This document shows positions 1-26,109 of a DNA stretch of 64,000 nt, in pieces. Numbering within the stretch: the stretch's first letter is position 1; every line of letters starts with the position of its first letter. The notes beneath the pieces are model-generated. The model saw only the letters and a program-made list of their open reading frames with translations. It did not search any database and was not told the origin of the DNA. Origin of the DNA: an uncultured Acidobacteriaceae bacterium (GTDB taxonomy: Bacteria; Acidobacteriota; Terriglobia; Terriglobales; Acidobacteriaceae); assembly GCA_963755765.1 (NCBI GenBank), contig CAVWKZ010000008.1, forward strand, positions 615,695-679,694. The letters run 5' to 3'. Made by a program: the position numbers and the translations under genes.

Positions 1-1
1 G

Positions 2-241
2 GAGATCATGCGCTGCTCAAAAGAAATCGAAAACTACCAGCTCACAGTCGATCTCGAAGCGTTGCGAGTGGAAGACGGCCAGGGATTTGCCGCGGCCTTC
101 GCGATGGATGAATTCTCCCGGCATTGCCTGCTCAACGGATTGGACGATATCGGACTGACCCTGCAACGCGAATCGAAGATCGCGGCCTATGAAGCAAACC
201 ATCCGGTGCGCGCGGAGATGAAGACAATTCTGGCCGTTTGA
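2..241 (+). CDS. leuD: 3-isopropylmalate dehydratase small subunit, C-terminal fragment (5' end off window)
   Basis: The frame is open to the window edge. The C-terminus ...FAMDEFSRHCLLNGLDDIGLTLQRESKIAAYE matches the remembered LeuD C-terminal motif (F..HC..NGLD.IGLTLQ....I..YE). Confidence 0.8.
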   Translation, partial: EIMRCSKEIENYQLTVDLEALRVEDGQGFAAAFAMDEFSRHCLLNGLDDIGLTLQRESKIAAYEANHPVRAEMKTILAV

Positions 242-345
242 TCCGGCGGTGAAGTGACGCTTGGCAACTAATCGTTCCTGACGCAAATCGCCTTCCCGTT
301 GTACACTTTTGAGTTTCACTGCCAGCCCGTCTTGGGTCACATCTC

Positions 346-2652
346 ATGCTGAATCGGAGTCCGTTCGTGAAAAAAGTTCTTCTCGTTTTCGCTCTTAACG
401 TGTCGGTGTTGCTTTTCGCAGCGAGCGCCCAAACTGGCACCTCGCCCGCCGCACCGAAGCAGCTCACGATCGAGCAGATCTTCGCCGAAGGAGGAGTCAC
501 CGGACGCGCCCCGGAAACGATCGAATGGAGTCCCGACTGCACCAAAGTGTCTTTCGTACAGCGCGATGACGAAGGCGAGCACGGCGAACTCTGGTATGTG
601 GACGCAGCGACGGGCGAGAAGAAATTATTAGCCAGCGAAAACAAGCTATCGCAGCTTGCCCCTTCCACCAGCAAGATCAAGGACGAGCGCGAGAAAGAGC
701 GCGTGACCCGGTACCACGTCGCCGCCTACATCTGGTCGCCCGACTCCAAACATCTCCTCTTCGATTCGCAGGGACAGCTCTGGTATTACAGCCTCGACAC
801 GGGAACGGCGGTGCAGCTCACCTCTTCTCCCGACCCCAGCGAAGACCCCAAGTTTTCCCCAGACGGCAAGCGGCTCACGTATGTGCGCAAGCACAATCTT
901 TATGTGCATCCGGTATCGGGTGAGGAAGGCGAACGACCGCTCACCCGCGAGGAAAAAGAGAAAGATAAAGATAAAGACAGGGATAGAGATAGTGATAAGG
1001 AAAAAGACGACAACATCCTGAATGGCGAGGTGGACTGGGTTTACGCCGAAGAACTGGCCGTGCGCAGCAACTACTTCTGGTCGCCCGAAGGACACGAAAT
1101 TATCTTTCTGCAAATGGATGAGACCCGGGTGCCGACCTATCCCATCACCGACTGGCTGCCCACGCATCCCAGGGTCGAGCAGGAAAAATACCCGAAGGCG
1201 GGCGATCCCAATCCCAGCGTGCGCCTGGGAGTGGTGAGCGGCAACGGAGGCAAGGTTCGGTGGCTCAAGCTCACCGACGATGACGACACCTATGTGCCGC
1301 GCTTCGGCTGGATTCGCGAAGGCTGGGCCTGGGCGGAAGTCCTGAATCGCAAGCAGGACGTGATGGACCTTTATTTTATTGACGCGAAGTCGGGCAGGTC
1401 TCGCAAAGTGCTCACCGAGTCGGCCCCGGACGCTTGGGTCAACGTCAACGACGATTTCCGCATCCTGAAATCCGGCGACCGCTTTCTGTGGACCAGTTGG
1501 CGCGACGGCCACACCCACATTTATCTCTACAGCTTCAACGCGGCCGATCCGCTCTCTGCCGACGCCAAACTCGAACGCCAACTCGAAAGCGGAGACTATG
1601 AAGTCATCGCGATCAGCGGCGTGGATGAAGCATCAAGCACAGTTTTCTTTACCGCTAACAAAGGAGATCCGAGGCAGGAGAAACTTTTTTCCGTCAAGCT
1701 TGATGGCTCGGGAATGCAGACTATTTCGGCGGACGATGGGAATTATGCTACGAGCTTCTCAGTCGACGCCAAGCATTTTGTGGAAACCCATTCTGCGACG
1801 CTGATGCCGCCACGCATTTCGGTGTGCGCGCCAGGGGGCGCGTGCCAGAAAATCTGGGAAAGTCGCAGCGTAGCCGATTATGACCCGATTGCCCCAAGGA
1901 TGTTGGAATTCAAAGCTGATGACGGCACGGTGTTGTATGGCTATGTTATTCTGCCGCGCAATGCGGACCCCGCTCAGAAAATTCCGCTCCTCGTGCACAT
2001 CTATGGCGGTCCGGCGGGGCAGACCGTGCGGGATGCTTGGGGTGGAACAAATGAGCTCTTCCACCAGATTCTGGCGAATGAAGGATTCGCGACTTTCTCA
2101 GTCGACAATCGCGGAACTCCGAATCGCGGAAAGAAATTCTCGGCCGCGATTCGCGGACAGTCGGGTCCGATCGAATTGAAAGACCAGCTCACTGCGCTCG
2201 ACCAGTTGTATGCCCAGTTTCCGCAGCTCGACCCCACGCGTACCGCGATGTGGGGATGGTCGAACGGCGGCTCGATGACGCTGTACGCGCTGACTCACTC
2301 TGACCGCTTCAAGGCGGGAATCTCGGTCGCTCCGGTAACCAGTTGGCGCAATTACGACTCGATTTATACCGAGCGTTACATGGGCTTGCTGAAGGATAAT
2401 TCCAGCGCCTACGACGATTCCATCGTCAGCGCGGCCAGTAGTCTGCACGGCTCCTTACTGCTCGTGCACGGCACCAGCGACGACAATGTTCATTTTCAAA
2501 ATACAATCCAGATGACCGACGCCCTGATCCGGTCGGGAAAGCAGTTTCGCCTGATGGTTTATCCAGACAAGACACACGGCATTGCGGGATCGGGTACGCG
2601 CACCCAGTTGTTCCACATGATGGAAGATTTCTGGAACAAGGAATTGAAGTAG
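346..2652 (+). CDS. S9 family dipeptidyl-peptidase IV-like serine peptidase, secreted
   Basis: 768-aa ORF with an N-terminal signal-like hydrophobic segment (VLLVFALNVSVLLFAASAQT). The long N-terminal half is propeller-like. The C-terminal alpha/beta hydrolase has the GWSNGG nucleophile elbow and later VHGTSDDNV and DKTHGI (Asp/His). Confidence 0.9.
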   Translation: MLNRSPFVKKVLLVFALNVSVLLFAASAQTGTSPAAPKQLTIEQIFAEGGVTGRAPETIEWSPDCTKVSFVQRDDEGEHGELWYVDAATGEKKLLASENKLSQLAPSTSKIKDEREKERVTRYHVAAYIWSPDSKHLLFDSQGQLWYYSLDTGTAVQLTSSPDPSEDPKFSPDGKRLTYVRKHNLYVHPVSGEEGERPLTREEKEKDKDKDRDRDSDKEKDDNILNGEVDWVYAEELAVRSNYFWSPEGHEIIFLQMDETRVPTYPITDWLPTHPRVEQEKYPKAGDPNPSVRLGVVSGNGGKVRWLKLTDDDDTYVPRFGWIREGWAWAEVLNRKQDVMDLYFIDAKSGRSRKVLTESAPDAWVNVNDDFRILKSGDRFLWTSWRDGHTHIYLYSFNAADPLSADAKLERQLESGDYEVIAISGVDEASSTVFFTANKGDPRQEKLFSVKLDGSGMQTISADDGNYATSFSVDAKHFVETHSATLMPPRISVCAPGGACQKIWESRSVADYDPIAPRMLEFKADDGTVLYGYVILPRNADPAQKIPLLVHIYGGPAGQTVRDAWGGTNELFHQILANEGFATFSVDNRGTPNRGKKFSAAIRGQSGPIELKDQLTALDQLYAQFPQLDPTRTAMWGWSNGGSMTLYALTHSDRFKAGISVAPVTSWRNYDSIYTERYMGLLKDNSSAYDDSIVSAASSLHGSLLLVHGTSDDNVHFQNTIQMTDALIRSGKQFRLMVYPDKTHGIAGSGTRTQLFHMMEDFWNKELK

Positions 2653-2740
2653 CATTCAGCAGTCAGCACTCAGCATTCAGACAAGAGAATTGCCTGTAGT
2701 GCAAACGAAAACTGAGTGCTAACTGCTGAATGCTGAGTGC
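2652..2740. repeat. Intergenic imperfect inverted repeat (about 22-bp arms) built from the words cagcactcag/cattcag
   Basis: Left arm gcattcagcagtcagcactcag. The right arm ctgagtgctaactgctgaatgc is its reverse complement with one mismatch. It lies between the peptidase stop and the next start, so it probably acts as a terminator or stabiliser hairpin. Confidence 0.75.
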
Positions 2741-2746
2741 TTCTTT

Positions 2747-3586
2747 ATGCATCGCACAACTCTCGGCGATTTCGAACTAACAGTAGTCTCCGATGGAACC
2801 TACTTCCTCGACGGCGGAGCTTTCTTCGGCGTCATCCCGAAAACCATGTGGTCGAAAAAGGTGACGCCTGACGAGCAGAACCGCCTCAACGTGGGACTGA
2901 ATTCGCTGCTAGTTCGCACCGGCAAGAAAAATATCCTGATCGAGACCGGAATCGGCAACAAGCTGCCAGAAAAACTGGTGCAGATCTACAAACAGCCCGC
3001 CAAGTTGCTCGACAATCTCCACGCCGCCGACCTTGCGCCCGAAGACATCGACATCGTCATTAACACCCACCTGCATTTCGACCATTGCGGATGGAACACG
3101 GTGCGGCGCGATGGCAAGACTGTCCCAACTTTTCCGCGCGCGAAATATTATGCGCCCGAAGGCGAATGGCAATACGCGCGCCATCCCAGTGAACGCGATG
3201 CCATCAGCTTCATGCCCGACAACTACGATCCGCTCGTGCAAAGCGGCCAGATGACGTTGCTCAAAGGTGGCGAGGAAATTGTCCCCGGCATCTCGGTGAA
3301 AACCTTCTCCGGCCACACCGCCCACATGCAAGCCGTGATCGTCGAGAGTGGAGGCCGCACCGCCTGCTACATCTCCGACCTAATCCCCACCGCCGCCCAC
3401 ATCGCCATCACCTGGGGCATGAGTTTCGACCTCTATCCTCTGCAAACCATCGAGAGCCGCAAGAAGTATTACGCGCAGGCGATTCCGGAGAAGTGGCTGA
3501 CCGTTTTCACGCACGACCACCAGACACCGTGGGGCTATGTGGAACGCGACGAGCGGGGAAGGCTCGCATTAAGGTCACTCGTATAA
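2747..3586 (+). CDS. MBL-fold metallo-hydrolase
   Basis: 279 aa with the HxHxDH zinc motif (NTHLHFDHCGWN) and a later SGHTAHM histidine. Confidence 0.85.
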   Translation: MHRTTLGDFELTVVSDGTYFLDGGAFFGVIPKTMWSKKVTPDEQNRLNVGLNSLLVRTGKKNILIETGIGNKLPEKLVQIYKQPAKLLDNLHAADLAPEDIDIVINTHLHFDHCGWNTVRRDGKTVPTFPRAKYYAPEGEWQYARHPSERDAISFMPDNYDPLVQSGQMTLLKGGEEIVPGISVKTFSGHTAHMQAVIVESGGRTACYISDLIPTAAHIAITWGMSFDLYPLQTIESRKKYYAQAIPEKWLTVFTHDHQTPWGYVERDERGRLALRSLV

Positions 3587-3608
3587 GGACATCCGCCCTC
3601 GGCCGTCC

Positions 3609-4676
3609 CTACGTGGCCTGCACTGGTAGTTTCGCCTCAAAAAACTCTTCCACCCGCCCCAATATCTCTGGTCCGCTCTTAGCTTCGTAGATCGCCTTCC
3701 GCAGCGCCGCCCCTCCCGGAACACCGTGCGTGAACCACGACGCGAACTGCTTCATCTTGCCTTCGGCTCCGGGCATTTCTTCTCCCAGCAGCATCGCGAA
3801 ATAAGTCCGGATCATCTGGTAGCGATCAGCTTCGGTGGGCTCGTCATAGTTGCCCCGGCTAACATATTGCCCAATCTGCCGGAAGATCCACGGATTCGCC
3901 GGCGCCATCCGGCCAATCATCACAGCGTCGCACCCGGTCCGCGCAACGATGGCGCAAGCGTCTTCAGGCGACCTGATGTCGCCATTGCCAATCACGGGAA
4001 TCTTGACTGCCTGCTTCACCGAGGCAATCCATTCCCAGCGCGCGTTGCCGCTATAGCCTTGCTCGCGCGTGCGGGCATGTAGTGCAACCGCTGCCAGGCC
4101 GCAGCTCTCGGCCATGCGCGCCAGTTCGACACATACGATTTCGTCGTCGTTCCACCCCGCGCGAAACTTAACTGTGAACGGAATCTTCACCGCCGCGCGC
4201 ACCGCTTCGAAAATTTGCCGGATCAGTGGCAGGTCGCGCAGCAGTCCGGAGCCGCCGTTGCACTTCACCACTTTCTTCGCCGGACAGCCCAGGTTCAGGT
4301 CAACAATGTCGAAGCCGAGATCCTCTACCAGCCGCGCAGCATCGGCCAGCACCCTAGGACTGCTCCCGAAGAGCTGAGCCGAAATCGGGTGCTCGTCTTC
4401 ATAGAAATGAAGGTATCGCCCACGCACCCGCTCATCGCGCAGTACGCCGTCCGCCGAGGTGAACTCGGTCATGATCAGCCCGCATCCCCCAAGGTTCTTG
4501 ATAAAGCGGCGAAAGACGGTGTCGGTAACGCCAGCCATGGGGGCCAGCACGGTAGCGGGAGCGATGCGGACGCCGCCGATCGCGAAGGAACTGGGAAAGG
4601 CGCGCGCGGCCGTTTGGCCAGCCTGCCCGAGGGCCGGAGCGTCAGCGCCGCGCGGATTGTCCCAGAACTTCTGCAC
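3609..4676 (-). CDS. dus: tRNA-dihydrouridine synthase
   Basis: 355 aa with Dus family motifs: LAPMAGVTD, DLNLGCPAKKV and the TVKFRAGW TIM-barrel pattern. Confidence 0.9.
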   Translation of the reverse strand: MQKFWDNPRGADAPALGQAGQTAARAFPSSFAIGGVRIAPATVLAPMAGVTDTVFRRFIKNLGGCGLIMTEFTSADGVLRDERVRGRYLHFYEDEHPISAQLFGSSPRVLADAARLVEDLGFDIVDLNLGCPAKKVVKCNGGSGLLRDLPLIRQIFEAVRAAVKIPFTVKFRAGWNDDEIVCVELARMAESCGLAAVALHARTREQGYSGNARWEWIASVKQAVKIPVIGNGDIRSPEDACAIVARTGCDAVMIGRMAPANPWIFRQIGQYVSRGNYDEPTEADRYQMIRTYFAMLLGEEMPGAEGKMKQFASWFTHGVPGGAALRKAIYEAKSGPEILGRVEEFFEAKLPVQAT

Positions 4677-4783
4677 AATCTGATTTTACGTGGTTTTAGC
4701 GGCGAAGACCTGGTAAAGCTGGACGGGGCCAAAAGTAAAGCCTCCCGCACGAGAGGCTTTTAAGAATGCCCGTTTCTCGGGAA

Positions 4784-5032
4784 TTACTTCTTCGCAGCCT
4801 CTGCCTTTGCGGCTTCGGCTTTCCCGGCATCGCTCTTGGCGTATTTACGGCGGAAGCGCTCGACGCGGCCAGCGGTGTCCATAAGCTTCTGCTTGCCGGT
4901 AAAGAAAGGATGGCAGGCGGAGCATATTTCCACGCTGATGTCGCCCTTGTGGGCGGAGCGGGTGACAAATGCGTTGCCGCAAGCGCAATGTACTCGAATC
5001 TCGCTGTAGTTGGGATGGATAGCTGCTTTCAT
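4784..5032 (-). CDS. rpmE: 50S ribosomal protein L31 (Zn-binding type A) with Ala/Lys-rich C-terminal tail
   Basis: MKAAIHPNY...CACGN...[26 protein letters not shown] is the canonical L31 sequence. The tail [18 protein letters not shown] is extra. Confidence 0.95.
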
Positions 5033-5179
5033 GTCGGTTCCTAAATCCTCGATTCAGACATTTGATTTTACCGGAGTTAGGAAGGATTCAGCAAGCCAGT
5101 TGCCAGGTTTCAGCGGTTAGGTCTCGGGAAAGCCTTCGCTCCGAAACGCTGAGACCTGAGACCTGGCACCTGAGACCTG

Positions 5180-5210
5180 AAAAAAAACGGCAGGACCGAC
5201 CCCCTGCCGT
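5180..5210 (-). terminator. Rho-independent terminator downstream of hup
   Basis: On the minus strand: cggcagg, an 8-nt loop, cctgccg, then a run of 8 T. It starts 31 nt after the hup stop. Confidence 0.7.
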
Positions 5211-5240
5211 CTCGCTCGTATCCAAGAATTCTGGGGCCCC

Positions 5241-5522
5241 TTACTTACCTTTATTGACCACTTTCTTCAGTTCGTTCCCGGGAGTAAATTTGGCGACTCT
5301 ACGGGCCGCTATCTTGATGGTGGCACCCGTCTGAGGGTTTCGGCCATTGCGGGCCTTGCGTTGTGAGACGGAGAATGTGCCGAATCCAATCAAAGCTACT
5401 CGGTCTCCTTTTCTAAGGGCAGCGGTAACGCTGTCCACGGTGGTGTCGATCGCGGTCGTCGCCTGCGCCTTTGATATGTTGCAGGCTCCGGCGATCCGGT
5501 CAACCAGATCAGCTTTATTCAT
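5241..5522 (-). CDS. hup: HU family DNA-binding protein
   Basis: The 93-aa core MNKADLVDRIA...GFGTFSVSQRKARNGRNPQTGATIKI is typical HU/IHF. I trimmed the 211-aa ORF to the internal ATG at 5522, because the upstream extension has no HU similarity. Confidence 0.9.
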   Translation of the reverse strand: MNKADLVDRIAGACNISKAQATTAIDTTVDSVTAALRKGDRVALIGFGTFSVSQRKARNGRNPQTGATIKIAARRVAKFTPGNELKKVVNKGK

Positions 5523-5604
5523 GCTCTCTCCTGACACTAGTCGTTTCGGTTCCCGCGCATTCAGCCGGGGAGGAAAGCCCAAAGCGCGAGCACCGGCGAT
5601 GGCC

Positions 5605-5632
5605 ATTCTCGCCCATGTTAAGGGATTGTCAA
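5605..5632 (-). promoter_or_regulatory. Candidate sigma-70 promoter for hup
   Basis: On the minus strand: TTGACA, a 16-nt spacer, then GAGAAT. It lies roughly 80 nt upstream of the hup ATG. Confidence 0.4.
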
Positions 5633-5934
5633 TGGGAAACACGTGCCAGTTGCCGGTTTTGACACCTTGCGTGCCCCGCTCTGTGTAGTGATTGGAGAAT
5701 GAGTCGAAAGTGCTAAGTAACGTGCTAAGGGCTTCTTGGTCGCGAACGAGAAGGGTGTGAGTTGACTCGTGCCGTAAGCTGTCGAAAATGGTCCGCGCTT
5801 TAGCGCCCGAGGTAAGCCTTCTGCACCGTTCTCCACAACTAGCTCCTCCTCTCCACAGGATGTACACAGAGAGCAACCGCTTTCGAGTTGCAGCCCAAGC
5901 CGTTCAAGGTGCACAGTCTAATTACACGAGATTT

Positions 5935-6705
5935 ATGAAGACAGCAGCTGAAGTTTGCCCCTGGTGCGCGGGTTCAGGATGGAAGCCGGTTCCCGAAGCG
6001 CCGGAGCGAGGCGTAACGCGTTGCGATTGTCAGTTGCGGGCGCGCGGCAGCGCCATGATCACGGCGGCGCGTATTCCCAAGCGATACGAGCATTGCGAGC
6101 TGTCGAACTTCACCACCGATTTTCCCGGCGCCGATCGTTCGGTGGAGCTGGCCCAGATCAGCGCCGCGCGCTTCGTGCAGGAGTTTGACCCGCGAGACGG
6201 AGCCGGCCTGCTGCTGGTCGGAGGAATCGGCACCGGCAAGACCCATCTCGCTGTGGGCATTCTCAAGGAACTTATCGCCACCCGAGGCAGCGCCTGCCTT
6301 TTTTGCGATTATCGCGAGCTGCTGAAACAGATTCAGAACTCATACAACGATTCCGTCCAGGCGACCGAATTACAAGTGTTGCGGCCAGTGTTTGAAGCCG
6401 AAGTGCTGTTGCTCGATGAACTCGGCGCCGTGAAACCAAGCGAGTGGGTATGGGACACAGTCAGCCTCATCCTCAACACCCGCTACAACGACAATCGAAC
6501 CACGATCATCACCACGAATTTTGCGGACGAGCCGGCTGCCAGCGTAACTCGATCGTTGTCGCCGGCTCGTGCCGCCGCGCGCGAAGAGACCCTTGGCGAC
6601 CGCATCGGAGAACGCATGCGCTCCCGTCTGCAAGAGATGTGCCGCATTGTGAGGATGGACGGCCCCGACTTCCGCCAGAAGTTCAAGAGCGCAAGCTTCG
6701 GATGA
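5935..6705 (+). CDS. DnaC/DnaI/IstB-like AAA+ ATPase with N-terminal Cys-rich zinc-finger-like motif
   Basis: Walker A GGIGTGKTHL and Walker B LLLDELG, followed by TTIITTN. The N-terminus is CPWCAGSGW...TRCDC. I trimmed the start to the ATG at 5935. Confidence 0.75.
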   Translation: MKTAAEVCPWCAGSGWKPVPEAPERGVTRCDCQLRARGSAMITAARIPKRYEHCELSNFTTDFPGADRSVELAQISAARFVQEFDPRDGAGLLLVGGIGTGKTHLAVGILKELIATRGSACLFCDYRELLKQIQNSYNDSVQATELQVLRPVFEAEVLLLDELGAVKPSEWVWDTVSLILNTRYNDNRTTIITTNFADEPAASVTRSLSPARAAAREETLGDRIGERMRSRLQEMCRIVRMDGPDFRQKFKSASFG

Positions 6706-6726
6706 AGTCAGGGTTGTTCACCTCTA

Positions 6727-6752
6727 CAATCTGACCTCTAACCTCTGACCTC
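6727..6752. repeat. 26-nt repeat copy (caatctgacctctaacctctgacctc)
   Basis: Identical except for one base to 26081-26106. Confidence 0.85.
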
Positions 6753-6767
6753 TTCTACAATCGAACC

Positions 6768-7937
6768 GTGCTGACTGAGCGCATCGAGTTCCATCCGGAA
6801 GCCGACTCCAAAGTCTTCTCCGCTGTAGCCGACGCACCCGCCGTGTTCCTTCTGCGAGCTGAAGACGCGAACTCCGAACCGTACGTCAGCAAAACCGCCA
6901 ACCTGCGGCGACGCCTGCAGCGTTTACTTTCCCCTCCCGAGGAGCGTACCAAGCGCCTCAACCTGCGCAATCGCGTCCACTGGATCGAATACACGCTGAC
7001 CGGCTCCGACTTCGAATCGGGATTCATACTCTATCAAGTCCTGCGCACTGCCTTTCCCAGGACCTACGCGAATCGCCTGCGGTTGCGCTTCGCTCCGCTG
7101 GTCAAGTTGCATCTGGAAAACGAATTCCCTCGGGCGTCGATCACGACCCGGCTTGGACGAGCCTCCGGAAAGAACATTTACTACGGCCCGTTTGCCTCGC
7201 GCGTGTCAGCGGAAAAGTTCATGAACGACGTGCTCGACTTCTTCAAAATGCGCCGCTGCGTTAGAGACCTCCATCCCGATCCGAAATTTCCCGGCTGCGT
7301 TTATTCCGAGATGAAGATGTGTTTGGCCCCCTGCTTTCGCGGTTGCACCGATGACGAGTATCGCGCCGAAGTCGTGCGCGTGGAGGATTTTCTCGACTCA
7401 CGCGGCGAATCGCTAAAGCGCCAAATGTCGGCGGAGCGCGATGACGCTTCGGCGCGAATGGAATTTGAGACCGCTGCAGCCATCCACGCGCGACTCGACA
7501 AACTAACTCCCGTGCTGCAGCAACTGCCGGAATTCGTCCACCGGATTGATCAGTTGCACGCCGTAGTCGTTCAGAAGTCTATCCAAAAGCCAGAGCAGCC
7601 GGGAAGTGTTGCCTTATTCCGCGTTGACGGTGGCGCAATCGCGGGACCGCTGGAGTTTCCTATTTCCGACGCGGAGCACGCCAAATCTCAGTCAATGGAA
7701 GCCCGCATCCACGCCGCGCTGGCGGCGTTTCCCGCGGCCAAGCCGGCCAGCGCCATCGAGGGCATGGAGCACCTCGCAATCCTGAAGCGCTGGTGCTATC
7801 GCGGCTCCCGCAGCGGCGAAATCTTCTTCGCCGACACAAAAGGAGAGCTGCCAATGCGGCGCCTGGTGCGAGGAATCGGCCGAGTATACAAAGGCGAAGC
7901 GCCGGAAAGCGAGATCCCGAAGCCAATCAGTCCTTAA
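6768..7937 (+). CDS. UvrC N-terminal-half homologue (GIY-YIG-like plus UVR domain, no C-terminal endonuclease/HhH); Cho-like
   Basis: PAVFLLRAED..EPYVSKTANLRRRL aligns with UvrC GVYRM...IYVGKAKDLKKRL. YYGPFASRVSAEKFMNDVLDFFKMRRC aligns with YFGPFPN...IFPIRQC. MEFETAAAIHARLDKL is UVR-like. At 389 aa it ends before the RNase H-like/HhH half. Confidence 0.7.
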   Translation: MLTERIEFHPEADSKVFSAVADAPAVFLLRAEDANSEPYVSKTANLRRRLQRLLSPPEERTKRLNLRNRVHWIEYTLTGSDFESGFILYQVLRTAFPRTYANRLRLRFAPLVKLHLENEFPRASITTRLGRASGKNIYYGPFASRVSAEKFMNDVLDFFKMRRCVRDLHPDPKFPGCVYSEMKMCLAPCFRGCTDDEYRAEVVRVEDFLDSRGESLKRQMSAERDDASARMEFETAAAIHARLDKLTPVLQQLPEFVHRIDQLHAVVVQKSIQKPEQPGSVALFRVDGGAIAGPLEFPISDAEHAKSQSMEARIHAALAAFPAAKPASAIEGMEHLAILKRWCYRGSRSGEIFFADTKGELPMRRLVRGIGRVYKGEAPESEIPKPISP

Positions 7938-8003
7938 GCTCAGTGCGTTGGTTGTTCGCCAACGACCAACGACCAGCGACCAACGACATACAATGGAATC
8001 ACC

Positions 8004-8540
8004 ATGGCGAAGAAGACCAGAAAAACATCAACCAAGTCCAAATCGAGCAAGAAAGCGGCGGCGCGCCCGGCATCTTCCGATCAGCCTCTCCGCGACCACC
8101 TGCTCTACCTGCTGAAAGATGGTGGTGCACACGTCACCTTCGACGCCGCCCTGGGCGACTGGCCCGTGCAACTCGCCGGAGTCAAAGTCGCGAACTTCCC
8201 CCACACCGCCTGGATGCTGCTCGAACACATGCGCCTCGCCCAGTGGGACATCCTGGAATTCAGCCGCAACTCGAAGCACGTCTCACCGAAATGGCCCGAA
8301 GGATACTGGCCCGCATCGGAAGCGCCCCCGAACGAGAATGCGTGGATCGAAAGCATGGCCACCTTCAAAAAAGACCTGCGGACACTGGAGCGGCTCGTTG
8401 CCGACCCTAAAACCAACCTCTACGCTCGGATCCCATGGGGTGACGGGCAAACAATTTTGCGCGAAACATTGCTCGTGGCCGACCACAACGCATATCACCT
8501 CGGGCAACTCGTAATGCTGCGCAAGAGCATCGGGATTTAA
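8004..8540 (+). CDS. DinB family protein
   Basis: 178 aa. The helical-bundle His pattern ends in HNAYHLGQLVMLRK, which is typical of the DinB superfamily. The N-terminus is a lysine-rich tail. Confidence 0.75.
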   Translation: MAKKTRKTSTKSKSSKKAAARPASSDQPLRDHLLYLLKDGGAHVTFDAALGDWPVQLAGVKVANFPHTAWMLLEHMRLAQWDILEFSRNSKHVSPKWPEGYWPASEAPPNENAWIESMATFKKDLRTLERLVADPKTNLYARIPWGDGQTILRETLLVADHNAYHLGQLVMLRKSIGI

Positions 8541-8605
8541 GTTTTTTTCAAGAACCAAGAAAAGGTTTTTCTCGGCGCTTTCTGCGTCTCGGCGGTGAAT
8601 AAAGT

Positions 8606-10281
8606 CTAAACCACCCGAGCCGGCGTCCGCGCCGGTCGCTTGCGAAACACAACCCGTATCTCTTCCCGCCAGCGCTCGTCGATTCCCAGCACTTCCCAAT
8701 CGATCTCGGGCGAGAGATAGCGCAGGATCGTGTCGATCGTGGGATGCACATGCAGAGCAGGCGAAACCAGCATCAACAGAGGCTTCTGCACCGAGAGCTC
8801 GCGCCCGGGGAAATAACCGAACTGCGCAAACTCGCCGCGGCTCTGGTGCCAGGCCACGCGCGACCAGTAATCCACTCCTTGCAGCGGCAGGTGGATATCT
8901 TCGTCGGCTTTGAGTTCAATCACCGCCAGCCGCGCCTCGCGAGTTGTGGCCAGAATGTCGATCATCGCTCGATCTGCCGCAGCAAACGCGGGCACCTTTG
9001 CATACACCGGCTCCGGCCGCAGCCGCCCGTCAAGAGCCGCGACGTTCGTGACCACCAGCGACTCCAGCCAGCGTTCGGGATGCATTCGCCACAAAGCGTG
9101 GTTCTTCGGACCGTCCTTATGACGAACCGCTGCCGCCAGACGCACCAGATCGCCAAACTGCGTTTCGTTCTCCGAGTTTAGTACCCGCTCTTCCGGCCCC
9201 ACGCCGAAAGCGATTTCCTCCCTGCTCTTGAAGTCCAGAGGATCATGGGCAATCCTCCCCTGTGCAAATTCGAGGCCATGCCGCCGAAACGAAATCAATG
9301 CCGGCGAAAGCACCACGACCTCAGCTTGCGGCAGAATGCCGTGAATGCGCGCGATCGACTCCGCAAAGCGATCACGCGCAGGACCTTCATCCACCACATG
9401 CACCAACCGGGTTGCCGGGTTGCCAGGTTGCCGCGATCGCCGATGTCTGCCGGTGCGAGCGCATCCTCCCGCTGGTCGAATTCGTACAAACTCCATTTCG
9501 ACGCTGCTGGATTCAGATGGGCCATGCGCTGCCGCGTGAGCGTAGCCATTCCTTTCGGCAAAATCATCGCCAACCCCTCTACCAATCGGCGGTCCCGCTG
9601 GGCAAGCCGGCACGCCTCCAGCCAAAGAATTCCGCAGGTAAGCCCACCATCAACGGTCGATTGTGTCTCTTCATCATTCACCCCAACCACTGCCAAAGCG
9701 CGCTGTCCGTGTCGCAACCAGCCGCGCAGGTAAGACGGACCGAAAGAGTGTTCAAGGTCGATAGCAGTAGTGAGTCGAACCACCGTCCATTCGGGGAAAT
9801 TTCTTTCTAGTGCCCGTCGCACCCGAGGCTCGTAAGCTACTCGTGCTTGCCGGCGCGCGGCGGGCGAGCGCTGGTCGCGATCCCGGCAGAAATCGAGGCG
9901 AGTCGGACGATTCTGCCCCATCCGCTGCACCTGCAGCCGCAGTGTAGTGGCCTTCACTTCCCCATCCAGCACACGCCGCACCACGTTTCGTTCGTGGGAC
10001 CACAGATGCAGCAGACATTTGTTGTACTCGCCCGAAATTGAGTACTTCGACTCCGCCAAATCGAACGCGATGGCGCCATCTTCCACCACCACCGCCGCGC
10101 GAGCACCAGTGAGGAAGCCGGAGAGCATCTGGCCGAGCGAATCCGGGGTCATATCGGAATTATTCGCCCGGCCGGAGACGGTGTCAGTGATGGGTGAACC
10201 GCGCAATTGTTTGGTTTCGTCAGGCACAGCGCAGTCTAACTTCCGTAATCTTTCCCCTGAAACTGAAGAGGTTCCGCTCAT
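8606..10281 (-). pseudogene. Frameshifted gene for a roughly 555-aa protein with a PD-(D/E)xK-like nuclease C-terminal domain
   Basis: Two overlapping minus-strand ORFs (9295-10281 and 8606-9625) each read as protein only up to or from the 8-nt tandem repeat at 9409-9432. The C-terminal part has ...AMIDILATTREARLAVIELKADEDIHLPLQGVDYW (a D...ExK...Q..Y pattern). Confidence 0.6.
9409..9432. repeat. Three tandem copies of an 8-nt unit (GGGTTGCC GGGTTGCC AGGTTGCC) at the frameshift point
   Basis: Read directly from the sequence. Deleting one unit joins the two reading frames and gives ...DIGDRGNLATRLVHVVDEG... Confidence 0.9.
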
Positions 10282-10342
10282 GTGATAATGCAGTTAGCGG
10301 GCGGTACATTTTCCCGCGAGCGACAGCCCCTCGGAGGGTTCC

Positions 10343-10618
10343 ATGGAGGTATCGGTTGCATCGTCGAAACCGGCGCGGGTCGTTATGACCTGCCTTTTGT
10401 TCTCATGTACAGTACTGTCAATGTGGAAGGGATTTCTTCGGTTTGAGTGGGTGTTTTTCTTCTGCTTTGGCTTGTACTACATGATGTATCTCCCAAAACA
10501 AAAGGGGGAGGCTTTCGCGGCATACCTCAAGAGACCACGAACTGTCGCCTCGGTGGCGCTGCTGGTCGCGGCGGTAGCCGGAGCAGGATATAACCTGCAC
10601 GTTGCGTTTATGAAATAG
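10343..10618 (+). CDS. Hypothetical small membrane protein
   Basis: 91-aa ORF with hydrophobic segments (WVFFFCFGLYYMMYL; VASVALLVAAVAGAGY). No recognisable family, and the start is uncertain. Confidence 0.3.
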   Translation: MEVSVASSKPARVVMTCLLFSCTVLSMWKGFLRFEWVFFFCFGLYYMMYLPKQKGEAFAAYLKRPRTVASVALLVAAVAGAGYNLHVAFMK

Positions 10619-10689
10619 GCCGAACGAGATGGCCGCAAGATACCGCATCTAATCGCTACGAGTCGTTTTTCCTACGAAGGCATCAAAAT

Positions 10690-12159
10690 ATGGTGACAGC
10701 CAATCAGGAACGTTTCTTCTTCGAGCACTACGGACTCACCAACCACGATCTCGAGATTTATCTCACCGCCGCCCTTTCCGCCGGCGGAGACTATGCCGAC
10801 CTTTATTTCGAATACCTGACCTCGACCTCGCTGATGGTGGATGAGTCTTTGGTCAAATCCGCCTCGCAGGGAATTTCAGCGGGCTGCGGCGTGCGTGTCG
10901 TCTCCGGCGAGCGCACAGGCTACGCCTACACCGACGATCTTTCTCCACAGCGCATTCTGCATGCGGCCCGCACCGCGGCTCTGATCGCGAGCGCGCCGTC
11001 CAAGACGACAGTCGCCGGATTCCAGCAGAAGCCCGCCCGCAGCTTGTACCCCATAGCCTTGCCTTCGGTGGACGCCGACATCACCGCCAAAGTCGAACTC
11101 CTGATGCGCGCCGATCGAACCGCACGCGGTTACGATCCGCGAATCAAAGAAGTTCGCGCCAGCTATGCCGATGAATTAAGGACCATCCTGATAGTCGGCT
11201 CCGACGGCACCTTTGCGGAAGACTCGCAGCCCTTGGCGCGGATGAATGTTTCCTGCATCGCGAAAACGGATGCAACTTCCGGCCGCGGCACCTCCGGCGG
11301 CGGCGGTCGCGTCGCGCTCGATTTCTTCTTTGGTGGTCATGGCGAAAAGACTCCCGAGTTCTTTGCCAAAGAGGCGGCGCGCCAGGCAATCCTGCAACTC
11401 GACGCCCGCGAAGCTCCGGCGGGCGATATGGAAGTCGTGCTTGGTCCAGGATGGCCCGGCGTGCTTTTGCACGAGGCCGTAGGCCACGGACTGGAAGCCG
11501 ACTTTAATCGCAAGAAGACTTCAGCGTTCGCCGGACTGATCGGCAAACGAGTCGCCAGCGAGAAGTGCACCGTGGTCGACAACGGCACCATGCCGTGGCG
11601 CCGCGGCTCCCTGAACGTGGACGACGAGGGCCAGCCCACGCAGGAAACCGTGCTGATCGAGAACGGAATTCTGAAGGGGTATCTGAGCGACAAGCTTTCC
11701 TCGAAGCTCATGGGCCTCGCCGACACGGGCAACGGACGTCGCGAGAGCTACGAGCACATCCCTATGCCGCGCATGACCAACACCTACATGCTGGCCGGGC
11801 AGGATGATCCCGGCGACATCATTCGCTCAGTGAAAAATGGCGTCTATGCGGTGAACTTCGGCGGCGGACAGGTAGACATCACCAACGGCAAATTTGTCTT
11901 TTCGGCATCGGAAGCCTATCTCATCGAAAACGGCCAAATCACGGCCCCAATCAAGGGCGCAACCCTGATCGGCAACGGCCCCGATGTGCTGACCCGGGTT
12001 TCGATGGTCGGCAACGACCTGAAACTCGACGAAGGCGTCGGCACCTGCGGCAAAGATGGACAGGCCGTTCCCGTCGGCGTTGGCATCCCGACCATTAAGA
12101 TTGATCGCATGACCGTCGGGGGCACCGCCAAGCGCGAAACCGGCGGATACATGCAGTAA
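10690..12159 (+). CDS. tldD: Metalloprotease TldD
   Basis: 489 aa with the HEAVGHGLE zinc motif and typical TldD/PmbA family length and C-terminus. Confidence 0.9.
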   Translation: MVTANQERFFFEHYGLTNHDLEIYLTAALSAGGDYADLYFEYLTSTSLMVDESLVKSASQGISAGCGVRVVSGERTGYAYTDDLSPQRILHAARTAALIASAPSKTTVAGFQQKPARSLYPIALPSVDADITAKVELLMRADRTARGYDPRIKEVRASYADELRTILIVGSDGTFAEDSQPLARMNVSCIAKTDATSGRGTSGGGGRVALDFFFGGHGEKTPEFFAKEAARQAILQLDAREAPAGDMEVVLGPGWPGVLLHEAVGHGLEADFNRKKTSAFAGLIGKRVASEKCTVVDNGTMPWRRGSLNVDDEGQPTQETVLIENGILKGYLSDKLSSKLMGLADTGNGRRESYEHIPMPRMTNTYMLAGQDDPGDIIRSVKNGVYAVNFGGGQVDITNGKFVFSASEAYLIENGQITAPIKGATLIGNGPDVLTRVSMVGNDLKLDEGVGTCGKDGQAVPVGVGIPTIKIDRMTVGGTAKRETGGYMQ

Positions 12160-12162
12160 CAC

Positions 12163-12240
12163 CACGGAGACACAGAGACACGGAGAAAACCAAGATCTTT
12201 TTCTTTCTTGTTTTGCTTTTCTCTGTGTCTCTGTGCCTCA
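12163..12240. repeat. Intergenic inverted repeat built from the words gagacac/agagacacggag
   Basis: cacggagacacagagacacggagaaaa ... ttttctctgtgtctctgtgcctc, located between tldD and pmbA. Confidence 0.7.
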
Positions 12241-12261
12241 GTGGTAGATTCTGACCTTGAA

Positions 12262-16706: not shown

Positions 16707-18836
16707 TTACAGCGCCGCAGCCTGTTCGCGCCGACGGCCCTGAATCTCGATATAAACGTTGATCAAAGAAACCGCCGCCGGCGTCACCCCGGGAATGCGC
16801 GAGGCTTGGCCCAGCGTCTGCGGGACGACATTTCCCAGCTTCTCCTGCATCTCGCGCGACAACCCGCTGACGGCTCCGTAATCGAACCAATCGGGAATGC
16901 GCCGCTGCTCCGCCTTTTTCAATCGGTCAATGGCGCGCTGCTGCTGGTCGAGATACCCGGCATACTTAATCTCAGTTTCGACCGCCTTAAGCTCGTTGCG
17001 GATTTCAGACGAAAGATGGAGCGGAGAAGCATCAACCGCAGAGGACACCGAGTTCGCTGAGCAATTTCTTTCGAAAAACCGCGGTGCCAGTTCCGCGAGA
17101 ATCGCCGCCAGTTGCTCGATGGTAATTTCAGGCCGCTTAAGCAGTTGAGCCAAAGGCTGCCCAATCGCGGAAGACAGATCGATCACCTCGGAATCCGTAG
17201 TCGCAGCCGCCTCCGCATGCCCCCGACCCGTTGACCGCAGCTCGACAGCGATCTCCTCGGCCATCGCCCCCGTGACCCTAGTCCGCTCCAGCAGCAGCTT
17301 CACTTCCTCCAGTCGCCGCTGCTTCGCCTCAAAATCCGCCCAAGCCTCATCCGAGATCAGCCCTACCCGCCGTCCATGGGGAGTCAACCGTCGATCAGCA
17401 TTATCGATCCGCAGGTGCAAGCGGAACTCCGCCCGCGAAGTAAACATCCGGTAAGGTTCGTTGGTCCCCTTCGAAATTAAATCGTCGATCAGAATCGCCG
17501 TATAAGCTTCCGTGCGATCGAGGATCAGCGGAGCATCGTTCTTCACTTTCAGAGCCGCGTTAATTCCCGCCATGATTCCCTGGCACGCCGCTTCCTCGTA
17601 CCCCGACGTCCCATTGATCTGCCCGGCCAGAAACAATCCCGCGATCTTTTTCGTTTCCAGTGTCCGCTTGAGTTCCGTGGGATCGATCGAGTCATATTCA
17701 ATCGCGTACCCCGGCCGCATCATCTCCGCGTTTTCGAGGCCCGGAATCGACTTGAGAATCGCCAGTTGCACATCAATCGGCAGCGAAGTGCTCATGCCGT
17801 TGACGTAGATCTCGTGCGTGTTCAGGCCCTCCGGCTCCAAAAAGAGCTGGTGCGTCAGTTTGTCGGGGAACTTGACGATCTTGTCCTCAATCGACGGACA
17901 ATAGCGCGGCCCGGTTGATTGAATCTGTCCGCTATACATCGGCGAGCGATGCACGTTCTCGCGAATAATGCGGTGCGTCTCTTCAGTCGTAAAAGCGATG
18001 TAGCAAGGCACCTGCGAATCGTGATGCGCAACTCTCCGCGTGCGAAAACTGAATGGCGTGGGATCCAAATCCCCCTGCTGCCGCTCAAATCGCGACCAGT
18101 CAATCGTGCGCCCATCCAGCCGAGGAGGCGTCCCCGTCTTGAGCCGGCATCCTCGCAGCCCAAGCTTCTTGAGCGCCTCGCCCAGTAGGACCGCCGCCGG
18201 TTCTCCCGATCGCCCCGCCGGATACTGCTGCTCGCCGCAGTGAATCAGCCCATTAAGAAAAGTCCCGGTGGTAATGATGACCACCGAAGCCGAAACGCGG
18301 CGCCCATCGCGCAATAGAATGCCGCGAATGCAGTTCTCGGTTCCCAGTTCCCGGTCCTCAGTACTTCCGGCGACATTGTCATCCTGAGCGGAGCGAAGGA
18401 CCCGCTTTTGCTGAGTGCTGAATGCTGAATGCTGAGTGCTGCCCAGAATCACATCCGAAACTTCCGCCTGCTTGATGCTCAAATTCGCCTGCGACTCCAG
18501 CACCTCGCGCATCTTGAGACGATAGGCCTGCTTGTCGCACTGCGCTCGTGGAGACCAAACGGCGGGCCCGCGTGAAGTATTAAGCAGGCGAAATTGGATT
18601 CCGACCGCATCCGTAATCTCGCCCATGATCCCGCCCAGCGCATCTACCTCGCGCACCAGATGCCCCTTAGCGATGCCCCCGATGGCCGGATTACACGACA
18701 TTTGCGCAATCAGATCGACATTCAGCGTAAACAGAGCAGTCTTCAGCCCCATGCGGGCGGCAGCCATGGCGGCTTCGCAACCGGCATGACCCGCTCCGAC
18801 AACTACGACATCGAAATGTTCGTCAAACGTCAGCAT
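16707..18836 (-). CDS. mnmG: tRNA uridine 5-carboxymethylaminomethyl modification enzyme MnmG (GidA), with internal insertion
   Basis: [60 protein letters not shown] and [13 protein letters not shown] are all canonical MnmG motifs. I trimmed the start to the ATG at 18836. Confidence 0.95.
18331..18445. repeat. Repeat-derived in-frame insertion inside mnmG
   Basis: The plus strand reads ...gtcatcctgagcggagcgaaggacccgcttttgctgagtgctgaatgctgaatgctgagtgctg.... It shares the exact 17-mer cagcactcagcattcag with the intergenic hairpin at 2652-2740. Confidence 0.65.
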
Positions 18837-26023: not shown

Positions 26024-26099
26024 GAGGTGAGAGGTCAGATTGCAGAAGTGAAAACACAACTCCCTTGGTTTCAACCTCTGCAATCTGACCTCTCACCTC
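26024..26099. repeat. Perfect 22-bp inverted repeat between efp and acyP
   Basis: gaggtgagaggtcagattgcag (26024-26045) and its exact reverse complement ctgcaatctgacctctcacctc (26078-26099), separated by a 32-nt loop. Confidence 0.85.
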
Positions 26100-26109
26100 T
26101 GACCTCGCC

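What the first reader, a model, noticed from the sequence alone, without database searches (positions are those of the whole stretch)
8606..10281. A roughly 555-aa PD-(D/E)xK-like protein gene is interrupted by copy number of an 8-nt tandem repeat (possible slipped-strand switch or fresh pseudogene)
Two overlapping minus-strand ORFs make sense as protein only on opposite sides of 9409-9432. That stretch holds three tandem copies of an 8-nt unit (GGGTTGCC, GGGTTGCC, AGGTTGCC).

Eight is not a multiple of three, so unit copy number sets the frame. Removing exactly one unit fuses the ORFs into ...YEFDQREDALAPADIGDRGNLATRLVHVVDEGPARDRF....

The C-terminal domain has a restriction-endonuclease-like pattern (IDILA...AVIELKADED...LQGVDYW). 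I do not recognise the N-terminal roughly 300 aa.

A nuclease gene toggled by a short tandem repeat resembles the phase-variable restriction and defence genes of other bacteria. This is only an analogy.
Basis: partly seen in the sequence, partly recalled or inferred. Interest (0 to 1): 0.65.

Follow-up and report, generated by a model that had tools for sequence, protein, structure and literature searches.

The report
Fresh frameshift in conserved nuclease gene
A widely conserved but unnamed nuclease gene of soil Acidobacteria has very recently been broken here by an 8-base tandem duplication at a slippage-prone spot, which looks like an ordinary fresh knock-out and not a dedicated on/off switch.

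Summary
On the minus strand, 9433..9407 reads GGCAACCT GGCAACCC GGCAACCC GG. Removing one unit fuses the two ORFs into a protein whose junction (GDRGNLATRLVH) is near-invariant in orthologues. The true gene is 512 aa (ATG 10152), not 555.

It belongs to an Acidobacteriota-wide, unannotated family. The model has pLDDT 93. The fold resembles NucS/EndoMS, and D-ExK-QxxxY is conserved in the C-terminal half.

All 83 in-frame orthologues examined carry two units. These are simply the G-N-L-A-T-R codons, and their wobble positions vary freely. No array is maintained and no variation in whole units is seen.

dN/dS is 0.05-0.08 in both halves, and there are no secondary lesions, so the break is very recent. 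An independent assembly (Logan) reproduces the 3-unit allele exactly.

A near-identical strain carries a different frameshift (+1) at the same spot, and a distant lineage has a deletion there. This points to a lacI-(CTGG)3-type indel hotspot.

Verdict: a fresh null allele at a slippage hotspot. A phase-variable switch is not supported but not fully excluded.

The parts
8606..10152 (-). Disrupted gene for a 512-aa NucS/EndoMS-like two-module nuclease. It runs from the native ATG at 10152 to the stop at 8606-8608 and contains one extra 8-nt unit.
   Evidence: Repair gives a protein 93-97% identical to intact 512-515 aa orthologues. The start at MTPDSL is shared by most orthologues.
9407..9433 (-). 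Tandem array of 3.4 copies of an 8-nt unit (GGCAACCT GGCAACCC GGCAACCC GG). The wild-type state is 2.25 copies, encoding G-N-L-A-T-R.
   Evidence: TRF result, sequence, and orthologue DNA with two units in 83 of 83 cases.
9409..9416 (-). The extra unit. Its placement is arbitrary: CAACCCGG is a perfect tandem duplicate of the preceding 8 nt. Its removal restores the frame.
   Evidence: An 8-nt gap sits exactly here in alignments to L201 and to all GTDB loci.
9295..10152 (-). N-terminal product as now encoded: native residues 1-246 (a beta-barrel plus a PD-(D/E)xK-like domain) followed by a 39-residue out-of-frame tail.
   Evidence: Translation. The model of residues 1-250 has pLDDT 90.6, and its top Foldseek hits are EndoMS 5gke_A and XisH 2inb.
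8606..9406 (-). Native reading frame of the C-terminal half (residues 247-512). It now lacks its own evident translation start, apart from in-frame TTG/GTG codons at 9404-9406 and 9401-9403.
   Evidence: Translation. Gene callers in near-identical contigs start this ORF at the GTG for V248 or further downstream.
8867..8959 (-). Catalytic motif of the C-terminal PD-(D/E)xK nuclease domain, in 512-aa numbering: D396 (8957-8959), E410 (8915-8917), K412 (8909-8911) and Q422...Y426 (8867-8881).
   Evidence: These residues are at least 90% conserved in 61 diverse homologues. They align to the NucS 2vld motif GIVDVMGVDKDGNIVVLELK.
10159..10187 (-). Promoter-like site (CTGACA-17-AATAAT) ending 7 nt before ATG 10152. 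This is a weak consensus match only.
   Evidence: one site found, against 0.6 expected in shuffles.

Best explanation
The window carries a very recent loss-of-function allele of a conserved, single-copy-looking Acidobacteriota gene. The gene encodes a 512-aa nuclease built from two NucS/EndoMS-like halves.

In this lineage the codons GGC AAC CTG GCA ACC CGG (G-N-L-A-T-R) lie in the conserved linker between the halves. By chance they form a near-perfect 8-nt direct repeat. Slipped-strand mispairing during replication, or an unequal exchange at the end of a recombination tract, copied one unit (CAACCCGG). This shifted the frame after residue 246.

The N-terminal half is now made with a 39-residue nonsense tail. 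The catalytic C-terminal half has no normal way of being translated.

The site behaves as a local indel hotspot of the classical lacI (CTGG)3 kind. A near-identical strain and a distant lineage carry other frame-breaking indels at the same place. The duplication can in principle revert by losing a unit. However, nothing indicates that the repeat is maintained or used as a regulatory switch.

Shown: the duplication, its recency, its reproducibility, the intact state in orthologues, the fold and the motifs.

Inferred: the slippage mechanism, the loss of function and the hotspot status.
For: - **Repair and family.** Repair restores a protein 93-97% identical to intact orthologues, with a near-invariant junction.
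- **Orthologue state.** All 83 in-frame orthologues have two units, with free wobble variation.
- **Selection.** dN/dS between the window and its closest intact relative L201 is 0.05 in the N part and 0.08 in the C part. Window-specific changes are 19 synonymous to 7 non-synonymous, the same as in the intact sister (21 to 7). There are no other stops or frameshifts.
- **Assembly quality.** Against L201 over 11 kb and L207 over 8.5 kb, the focal insert is the only frame-breaking indel in coding sequence. All other indels that are not multiples of three are intergenic. A coding-potential scan shows no other within-gene frame switch in the 64 kb.
- **Reproducibility.** A Logan assembly of run ERR11523669 (L208) is 100% identical over 3,307 nt, including the three units.
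- **Other hits at the same site.** L207 differs by only 2 mismatches in the gene and has wild type +1 nt at the same site. L214 (about 60% identity) has a deletion that removes the G-N-L codons.
- **Background rate.** Only 1 of 80 species representatives has a frameshift, and it lies elsewhere, near residue 450.
- **Protein identity.** The AlphaFold2 model has pLDDT 93. The top Foldseek hit is EndoMS 5gkj_B, E 5e-4. The N half alone also hits EndoMS and XisH. A profile search matches the NucS catalytic motif.
- **Precedent.** The lacI (CTGG)3 hotspot gains or loses one unit by slippage (PMC12606429).
Against: - No reads could be inspected. Fixation versus heterogeneity in the population is therefore unknown, and L208 may derive from the same read set as the window.
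- The hotspot claim rests partly on a biased sample: I looked up C-terminal ORFs that start at V248.
- The +1 allele of L207 might be a consensus artefact at a heterogeneous site. Its contig name looks Flye-like, but this is only an inference.
- Two different null alleles on a virtually identical background need either a high local mutation rate or selection for inactivation. That is also what a contingency locus would show.
- Loss of function is inferred, not measured.
- A run of 484 nt that is 100% identical to L201 apart from 1 mismatch ends exactly at the insert. This could indicate a recombination junction or a chimeric consensus, not simple replication slippage.
Confidence: 0.62

Rival explanations
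1. Phase-variable (contingency) locus: the 8-nt repeat is a slipped-strand ON/OFF switch for the nuclease. Two units would be ON and three OFF, toggling at high frequency as in phase-variable restriction-modification or mutL/mutS switches.
For: - The unit length is not a multiple of three.
- The +8 allele is a perfect tandem duplication and therefore precisely revertible.
- Two different out-of-frame lengths occur at the same site in near-identical genomes.
- Short repeats in the repair gene mutL are reported to act as spontaneous switches (PMC2955026).
Against: - There are only 2-3 units.
- All 83 in-frame orthologues have two units, and 68 of them have 2 or more mismatches between the units. 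The repeat is therefore not conserved as DNA.
- The other variants (+1, and a deletion) are not whole units.
- No ON allele was found on the near-identical background.
- Other 7-8-nt arrays in this genome show no copy-number change between the window, L207 and L201.
- The gene lies in stable core synteny.
Confidence: 0.1
2. Sequencing or assembly artefact: the organism really has two units and an intact gene. The extra unit would have arisen in consensus building, for example at a point where reads of two strains are merged.
For: - The window's contig is 1.17 Mb. The related contig names (contig_50450) look like long-read metagenome assemblies, which are polished from Nanopore reads only (PMC12313526).
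- A near-perfect identity tract shared with L201 ends exactly at the insert, as a strain-switch point would.
- L207 shows an odd +1 at the same place.
Against: - A k-mer based Logan assembly gives the identical 3-unit sequence over 3.3 kb.
- An 8-nt perfect tandem duplication is not a typical read-error type. This rests on my own knowledge.
- Neither assembly shows any other coding frameshift in 8.5-11 kb, and all other 1-2-nt indels are intergenic. That pattern marks real differences filtered by selection.
- A short-read JGI contig (L214) also has a frame-breaking indel at this site.
Confidence: 0.08
3. Tolerated gene fission: the break falls in the linker between two structurally autonomous NucS-like halves. 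The halves are therefore made as separate polypeptides that reassemble, as NucS does as a dimer. The C half would start at the TTG/GTG codons for L247/V248 by re-initiation.
For: - The model shows two halves, and the N half folds confidently on its own.
- Natural breaks cluster at the linker: the window, L207, L214 and the P0414 contig, plus a nonsense codon 22 codons upstream in L211-213.
- In L207 every native residue stays encoded. The N-ORF stop lies 17 nt after a GTG start for V248, a geometry compatible with translational coupling.
Against: - In the window the N-ORF runs 39 codons (about 110 nt) past the candidate restart, and no Shine-Dalgarno-like sequence precedes it.
- The linker residues G-N-x-x-T-R-L are themselves highly conserved. 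They are lost in L214, and L247 is lost from both products in the window.
- 79 of 80 species representatives keep the fused gene.
- No stable split lineage with its own divergence was found.
Confidence: 0.1
4. Programmed recoding: the gene is expressed as one protein through ribosomal frameshifting or transcriptional slippage at the repeat.
For: None beyond the location of the break inside a repeat.
Against: - There is no slippery heptamer or homopolymer at the site.
- The window (+8) and L207 (+1) would need shifts in opposite directions.
- Orthologues are in frame.
Confidence: 0.01

Closest known systems
lacI (CTGG)3 spontaneous frameshift hotspot of E. coli (Farabaugh et al. 1978, as summarised in PMC12606429)
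   Same: A short tandem repeat of 2-3 units inside an ordinary coding gene. It gains or loses one unit by replication slippage. The unit length is not a multiple of three, so the result is a null allele that is precisely revertible. Nearby short direct repeats also seed deletions, as in L214.
   Different: The unit here is 8 nt, and the wild type has only 2.25 imperfect units. Recurrence is inferred from natural contigs, not measured in a mutation spectrum. One of the co-located variants (+1) is not a whole-unit change.
NucS/EndoMS mismatch-specific endonuclease (PDB 2vld, 5gkj, 5gke; PMC5290159)
   Same: The best structural match for the whole protein and for the N half alone. The C-terminal motif GxxD...(13)...ELK...QxxxY aligns to the NucS catalytic site. 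The layout is a beta-barrel domain followed by a RecB-like PD-(D/E)xK domain.
   Different: No Pfam or NCBIfam hit. The protein is twice the size, with two such modules in one chain instead of a homodimer. The N-terminal module lacks the canonical D/ExK triad. E-values and TM-scores are marginal. The phylum differs (Acidobacteriota), and the function is untested.
Simple-sequence-repeat phase-variable restriction-modification and defence genes (Haemophilus, Neisseria, Helicobacter, Campylobacter); from my own knowledge
   Same: A nuclease-family gene whose frame depends on the number of units of a repeat that is not a multiple of three.
   Different: Those loci keep long tracts that vary in whole units among sibling cells and strains, and they sit in variable regions. 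Here there are 2 to 3 units, no conservation at the DNA level, no whole-unit polymorphism and stable core synteny.
Tandem-repeat 'genetic switches' in mutL/mutS (PMC2955026)
   Same: Copy-number change of a short repeat (three copies of 6 bp) inside a DNA-repair gene converts it between functional and defective alleles by slipped-strand mispairing. If this family is a repair nuclease, null alleles could act as mutator alleles.
   Different: The mutL change is in frame, and switching in both directions was shown experimentally. Here the function is unknown and only defective states were seen on the close background.

Membership tests
SSR-mediated phase-variable (contingency) gene | A tract of many identical units, long enough for high-frequency slippage | tested here: not met
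   There are 3.4 units in the window and 2.25 imperfect units in 83 of 83 in-frame orthologues.
SSR-mediated phase-variable (contingency) gene | Whole-unit copy-number polymorphism among close relatives or reads, including ON and OFF states | tested here: inconclusive
   Near-identical contigs show +8 (window, L208) and +1 (L207); no in-frame allele was seen on that background. Reads were not available.
SSR-mediated phase-variable (contingency) gene | The repeat is maintained at the DNA level beyond what the protein sequence requires | tested here: not met
   Wobble positions vary freely. Only 15 of 83 orthologues have units differing at one position, and 35 of 83 differ at 3 or more positions.
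NucS/EndoMS family (Pfam NucS domains) | Significant sequence match to the family profile | tested here: not met
   No Pfam hit at E<=1 for the repaired protein, and none at E<=0.01 for 61 diverse homologues. No NCBIfam hit. The PDB profile search gives NucS 2vld only at E 0.096, over about 60 residues.
NucS/EndoMS family (Pfam NucS domains) | [quoted passage not shown] | tested here: inconclusive
   EndoMS is the top Foldseek hit for the full model (E 5e-4, prob 0.97) and for the N half (E 6e-3, prob 0.77). However, TM-scores are 0.13-0.27 and rmsd exceeds 14 A, probably because of domain orientation.
PD-(D/E)xK nuclease superfamily | Conserved D ... (D/E)xK catalytic residues on the core beta-strands, with QxxxY in the RecB-like branch | tested here: met
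   D396, E410, K412, Q422 and Y426 are at least 90% conserved in 61 diverse members. They lie on strands E396-401 and E406-411 and on helix 419-435 of the model, and they align to the NucS catalytic motif. XisH-family PD-(D/E)xK structures match with prob 0.99-1.0.
Pseudogene (decaying) | Frame disrupted relative to intact orthologues | tested here: met
Pseudogene (decaying) | Relaxed selection and further lesions | tested here: not met
   dN/dS is 0.05-0.08, the terminal branch has 19 synonymous to 7 non-synonymous changes, and there are no further stops. The lesion is too young to show decay.
Anti-phage defence system component (PADLOC) | Significant full-length match to a defence-system model, or a defence-island context | tested here: not met
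   Only PDC-S11 candidate models match, at E about 1e-4 over residues 437-473, which is the catalytic motif alone. The neighbours are PmbA/TldD, DinB_2, UvrC_M, HU, L31 and Dus, in conserved order.

The most novel reading that the evidence does not exclude
The inter-module linker of this Acidobacteriota-wide NucS-like nuclease is a recurrent, partly reversible inactivation point. Slippage-prone codons there would repeatedly generate null alleles (+8, +1, a deletion) that reach consensus frequency in natural soil populations. If the enzyme is a mismatch or recombination-control nuclease like NucS, these alleles would be naturally occurring, revertible mutator or hyper-recombination states. Alternatively, they would be viable two-subunit forms of the enzyme. 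The mosaic recombination pattern around the gene would fit loosened control of homeologous recombination.
Probability: 0.12. Interest if true: 0.7.

Novelty: new member of a known kind. Interest (0 to 1): 0.36.

Why it matters
The frameshift itself is an ordinary class of event: a tandem-duplication knock-out at a short direct repeat. Its value is mostly as a clean, datable example in an uncultivated soil bacterium. It also warns that '8-nt repeat plus nuclease' does not by itself mean phase variation.

Two by-products are more useful.

- **An unannotated family.** The broken gene belongs to a large family: 1,894 clusters at 50% identity, with no Pfam model, and every named relative examined is acidobacterial and labelled 'hypothetical'. 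It can now be described as a two-module NucS/EndoMS-like nuclease with an intact RecB-type active site. That gives a testable hypothesis for a conserved acidobacterial DNA-transaction enzyme.
- **A possible hotspot.** Several independent natural null alleles cluster at one 18-nt site. If confirmed with reads, this would be a natural hotspot, and possibly a source of mutator subpopulations in soil.

Tried and rejected
- **Family libraries.** Pfam, NCBIfam and PDB sequence searches on the repaired protein and on a close-homologue profile found nothing. Only a diverse profile gave a weak NucS hit.
- **Metagenome scan for a 3-unit allele.** None lay in an orthologue; they are unrelated GGCAACCC microsatellites. 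This spent the only metagenome scan.
- **Window's own contig.** It could not be retrieved. An exact look-up of the 328-aa ORF found no gene on record, and the UvrC_M neighbour was not on record either.
- **Internal duplication.** hhalign of the N half against the C half gave no signal.
- **GC3 frame plot.** At 58% GC it was too noisy. I replaced it with a codon-usage log-odds track.
- **Hypermutable 7-8-nt arrays genome-wide.** Rejected: copy numbers are identical in the window, L207 and L201.
- **Programmed frameshifting.** Rejected: no slippery site, and the two alleles need opposite shifts.
- **Provenance of runs and assemblies.** A literature search for the accession numbers found nothing.

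Full report
**1. The observation**

The sequence is as described. On the minus strand, 9433..9407 reads GGCAACCT GGCAACCC GGCAACCC GG. Tandem Repeats Finder reports one array here: period 8, 3.4 copies. A 15-nt two-unit pattern occurs nowhere else in the window, against 0.04 expected by chance.

Two minus-strand ORFs overlap across the array: 9295..10281 and 8606..9625. Deleting any one unit yields a single open frame with the junction ...GDRGNLATRLVH....

**2. The repair is correct, but the gene is 512 aa, not 555**

A search with the repaired protein returned 5,675 hits. The best are 83-93% identical, about 512 aa long, from Terriglobales and Acidobacteriaceae MAGs, all named 'hypothetical' and all without Pfam domains.

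In the alignment the junction GNLATRLVH is near-invariant. Most orthologues start at MTPDSL, which is ATG 10152, and the upstream 43 residues are not conserved.

**3. What the protein is**

- Pfam and NCBIfam find nothing for the repaired protein, and Pfam finds nothing for 61 diverse members.
- An exhaustive HMMER scan of 1.84 billion representatives finds 1,894 clusters.
- Distant members that carry names are again Acidobacteriota, for example Bryobacteraceae.
- An AlphaFold2 model of the 93%-identical intact orthologue P0001 is confident, with pLDDT 93.1.
- Foldseek against the PDB puts EndoMS/NucS first (5gkj_B, E 5e-4, prob 0.97). XisH-family and Card1/Can2-type PD-(D/E)xK nucleases follow.
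- The N-terminal 250 residues, modelled alone (pLDDT 90.6), also hit EndoMS first (5gke_A, E 6e-3) and XisH (prob 0.99).
- A profile of diverse members aligns its C-terminal motif GviDLLa..grLaViELK to the catalytic motif of NucS 2vld, at a weak E of 0.096.
- D396, E410, K412, Q422 and Y426 are at least 90% conserved.

I read this as a chain of two NucS-like modules, of which the C-terminal one carries a complete RecB-type active site. TM-scores are low and no sequence-level internal duplication is detectable, so this is resemblance, not family membership.

The frameshift falls at residue 246, in the conserved connector between the halves.

**4. Genomic context**

The gene is monocistronic. 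It is divergent from PmbA/TldD genes and convergent with a DinB_2-like gene. Beyond that lie genes with UvrC_M and GIY-YIG domains, an IstB-like AAA protein, HU, L31 and Dus. This order is conserved in relatives. It is core synteny, not a defence island. PADLOC gives only weak hits (E about 1e-4) to candidate models, over the 40-residue catalytic motif.

**5. Is the repeat a switch?**

- I fetched 80 orthologous loci from GTDB species representatives, plus closer metagenome contigs.
- Every alignable locus lacks 8 nt relative to the window.
- All 83 in-frame copies read G-N-L-A-T-R with two units.
- The wobble positions vary freely: AAT 45 to AAC 38, GCA 48 to other codons 35. Only 15 of 83 have units differing at a single position.
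- The 'repeat' is therefore a by-product of the codons. It is near-perfect in the window's lineage, and the DNA-level repeat is not maintained.
- Other 7-8-nt arrays in this genome do not change copy number between close relatives.

**6. How old is the break?**

The closest intact relative is P0130, on contig L201. It is 97% identical in protein and 94% in DNA, and syntenic over 11 kb.

- dN/dS against L201 is 0.05 for the part 5' of the break and 0.08 for the part 3' of it.
- Polarised with outgroups, the window's own branch has 19 synonymous and 7 non-synonymous changes. The intact sister has 21 and 7.
- There are no further stops or shifts.

The lesion is therefore too young to have left any trace of relaxed selection. 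The 'plain dead gene evolving neutrally' reading is refuted.

**7. Real or artefact?**

- Across 11 kb against L201 and 8.5 kb against L207, the focal insert is the only frame-breaking indel in coding sequence. All other indels that are not multiples of three lie between genes. A coding-potential track shows no other within-gene frame switch in the 64 kb. Both points argue for accurate assemblies.
- Looking up the window's DinB-like neighbour by exact sequence recovered a Logan contig from run ERR11523669 (L208). It is 100% identical to window 7422..10728, three units included.
- I cannot tell whether that run is also the source of the window. Either way, a different, k-mer based assembler recovers the same allele.
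- I put the artefact explanation at about 8%.

**8. Other hits at the same site**

- The same look-up recovered L207 (ENA ERZ25039484, a 435-kb contig). It is 98.5% identical overall, virtually identical from about 5.5 to 12 kb, and has only two mismatches in the gene.
- At the very same position L207 reads GGCAACCTGGCAACCCGGC|TTGGTG. That is wild type plus one C, so it is also out of frame, but in the other phase.
- A search with the C-terminal half turned up further truncated products that start at V248.
  - L214 (short-read JGI contig, about 60% identity) has a deletion that is not a multiple of three and removes the G-N-L codons. It probably arose between CGCGAC microhomologies; its exact length is uncertain without a close intact relative.
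  - L211-L213 (three runs) have a TAA nonsense codon 22 codons upstream, with an intact repeat.
  - One more split contig had no DNA available.
- In the unbiased set of 80 species representatives, only one copy is frameshifted, and elsewhere, near residue 450.
- My look-ups were biased towards breaks near residue 248. With that caveat, three different indels within one 18-nt stretch suggest a local indel hotspot.
- This is the behaviour first described for (CTGG)3 in lacI: gain or loss of one unit, plus deletions between 5-8-bp repeats (PMC12606429).

**9. A detail on mechanism**

Identity between the window and L201 is mosaic: 12 perfect tracts of at least 120 nt in 11 kb. One run of 484 nt, containing a single mismatch, ends exactly at the insert. 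Divergence resumes at the next base, at about 20% over the next 27 nt.

The duplication may therefore have arisen by misaligned exchange at the end of a recombination tract, and not by simple replication slippage. By my rough estimate, the chance of such a coincidence is a few per cent. I could not test this further.

**10. Verdict**

The best reading is a fresh loss-of-function allele, produced by an 8-bp tandem duplication at a slippage-prone pair of codon-encoded direct repeats. The gene is a conserved but uncharacterised acidobacterial NucS-like nuclease gene (confidence about 0.6).

| Rival explanation | Confidence |
|---|---|
| True phase-variable switch | about 0.1 |
| Tolerated fission into two subunits | about 0.1 |
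| Assembly artefact | about 0.08 |
| Programmed recoding | about 0.01 |

If NucS-like function holds, null alleles could be mutator alleles; nucS loss raises mutation rates about 100-fold in mycobacteria (PMC5290159). Short repeats in mutL have been proposed as mutability switches (PMC2955026). That remains speculation here.

Reads from the named runs would settle most of this.

Noticed in passing
window 2651-2741, 5149-5180, 6730-6753, 7959-7987, 12163-12243, 18331-18441, 26084-26106: The window has 11 tandem arrays of period 7-8 with at least 3 copies, against 0.17 expected in 30 dinucleotide shuffles. Most of the other ten lie between listed ORFs. Two pairs are inverted (AGCATTC x4 with CTGAGTG x4; CACGGAGA x3 with TCTCTGTG x3) and would fold into hairpins built of heptamer or octamer units. 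Copy numbers are unchanged in close relatives.
   Followed up: partly
window 1-11400 versus L201: Identity to the closest intact relative is mosaic. Twelve perfectly identical tracts of 126-384 nt are interspersed with segments of 85-92% identity. This suggests frequent homologous recombination between lineages at about 94% ANI, or chimeric consensus. One tract ends exactly at the 8-nt insert.
   Followed up: partly
L081-L200 (metagenome contigs): GGCAACCC/GGCAACCT octamer microsatellites, with up to more than 10 units, are common in unrelated soil and rhizosphere contigs. They are often next to related octamers such as AGCAACTC.
   Followed up: no
L211 1009-1014, L212, L213; L214 1517-1548; L079 about 7334-7362: Other natural null alleles of the same gene family: a TAA nonsense codon in LYEFDQ in three sequencing runs, a frame-breaking deletion of the G-N-L codons in a distant lineage, and a +1 insertion near residue 450 in one GTDB representative.
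   Followed up: partly
window 9386-9400: Just 3' of the insert (minus strand), the window and L207 share a cluster of lineage-specific substitutions: GCC GTC becomes GTG GTG (A250V plus a synonymous change). This yields GTG CAT GTG GTG. Such clustering near the indel site hints at a multi-nucleotide event or an unsampled donor sequence.
   Followed up: no
window 10282-10690: The region upstream of the gene is lineage-specific. The 91-aa hydrophobic ORF at 10343..10618 is present in the window, L207 and L208, but much of this region is absent from L201. In L204-L206 a 587-aa DUF885 gene occupies this position.
   Followed up: no
window 5788-7937 and L204 12219-14843: The conserved neighbours include a 389-aa protein with only a UvrC_M domain. 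In some relatives there is also a separate 115-aa GIY-YIG ORF and an IstB/DnaC-like AAA protein. This is an unusual UvrC/Cho-like arrangement next to the nuclease gene.
   Followed up: no
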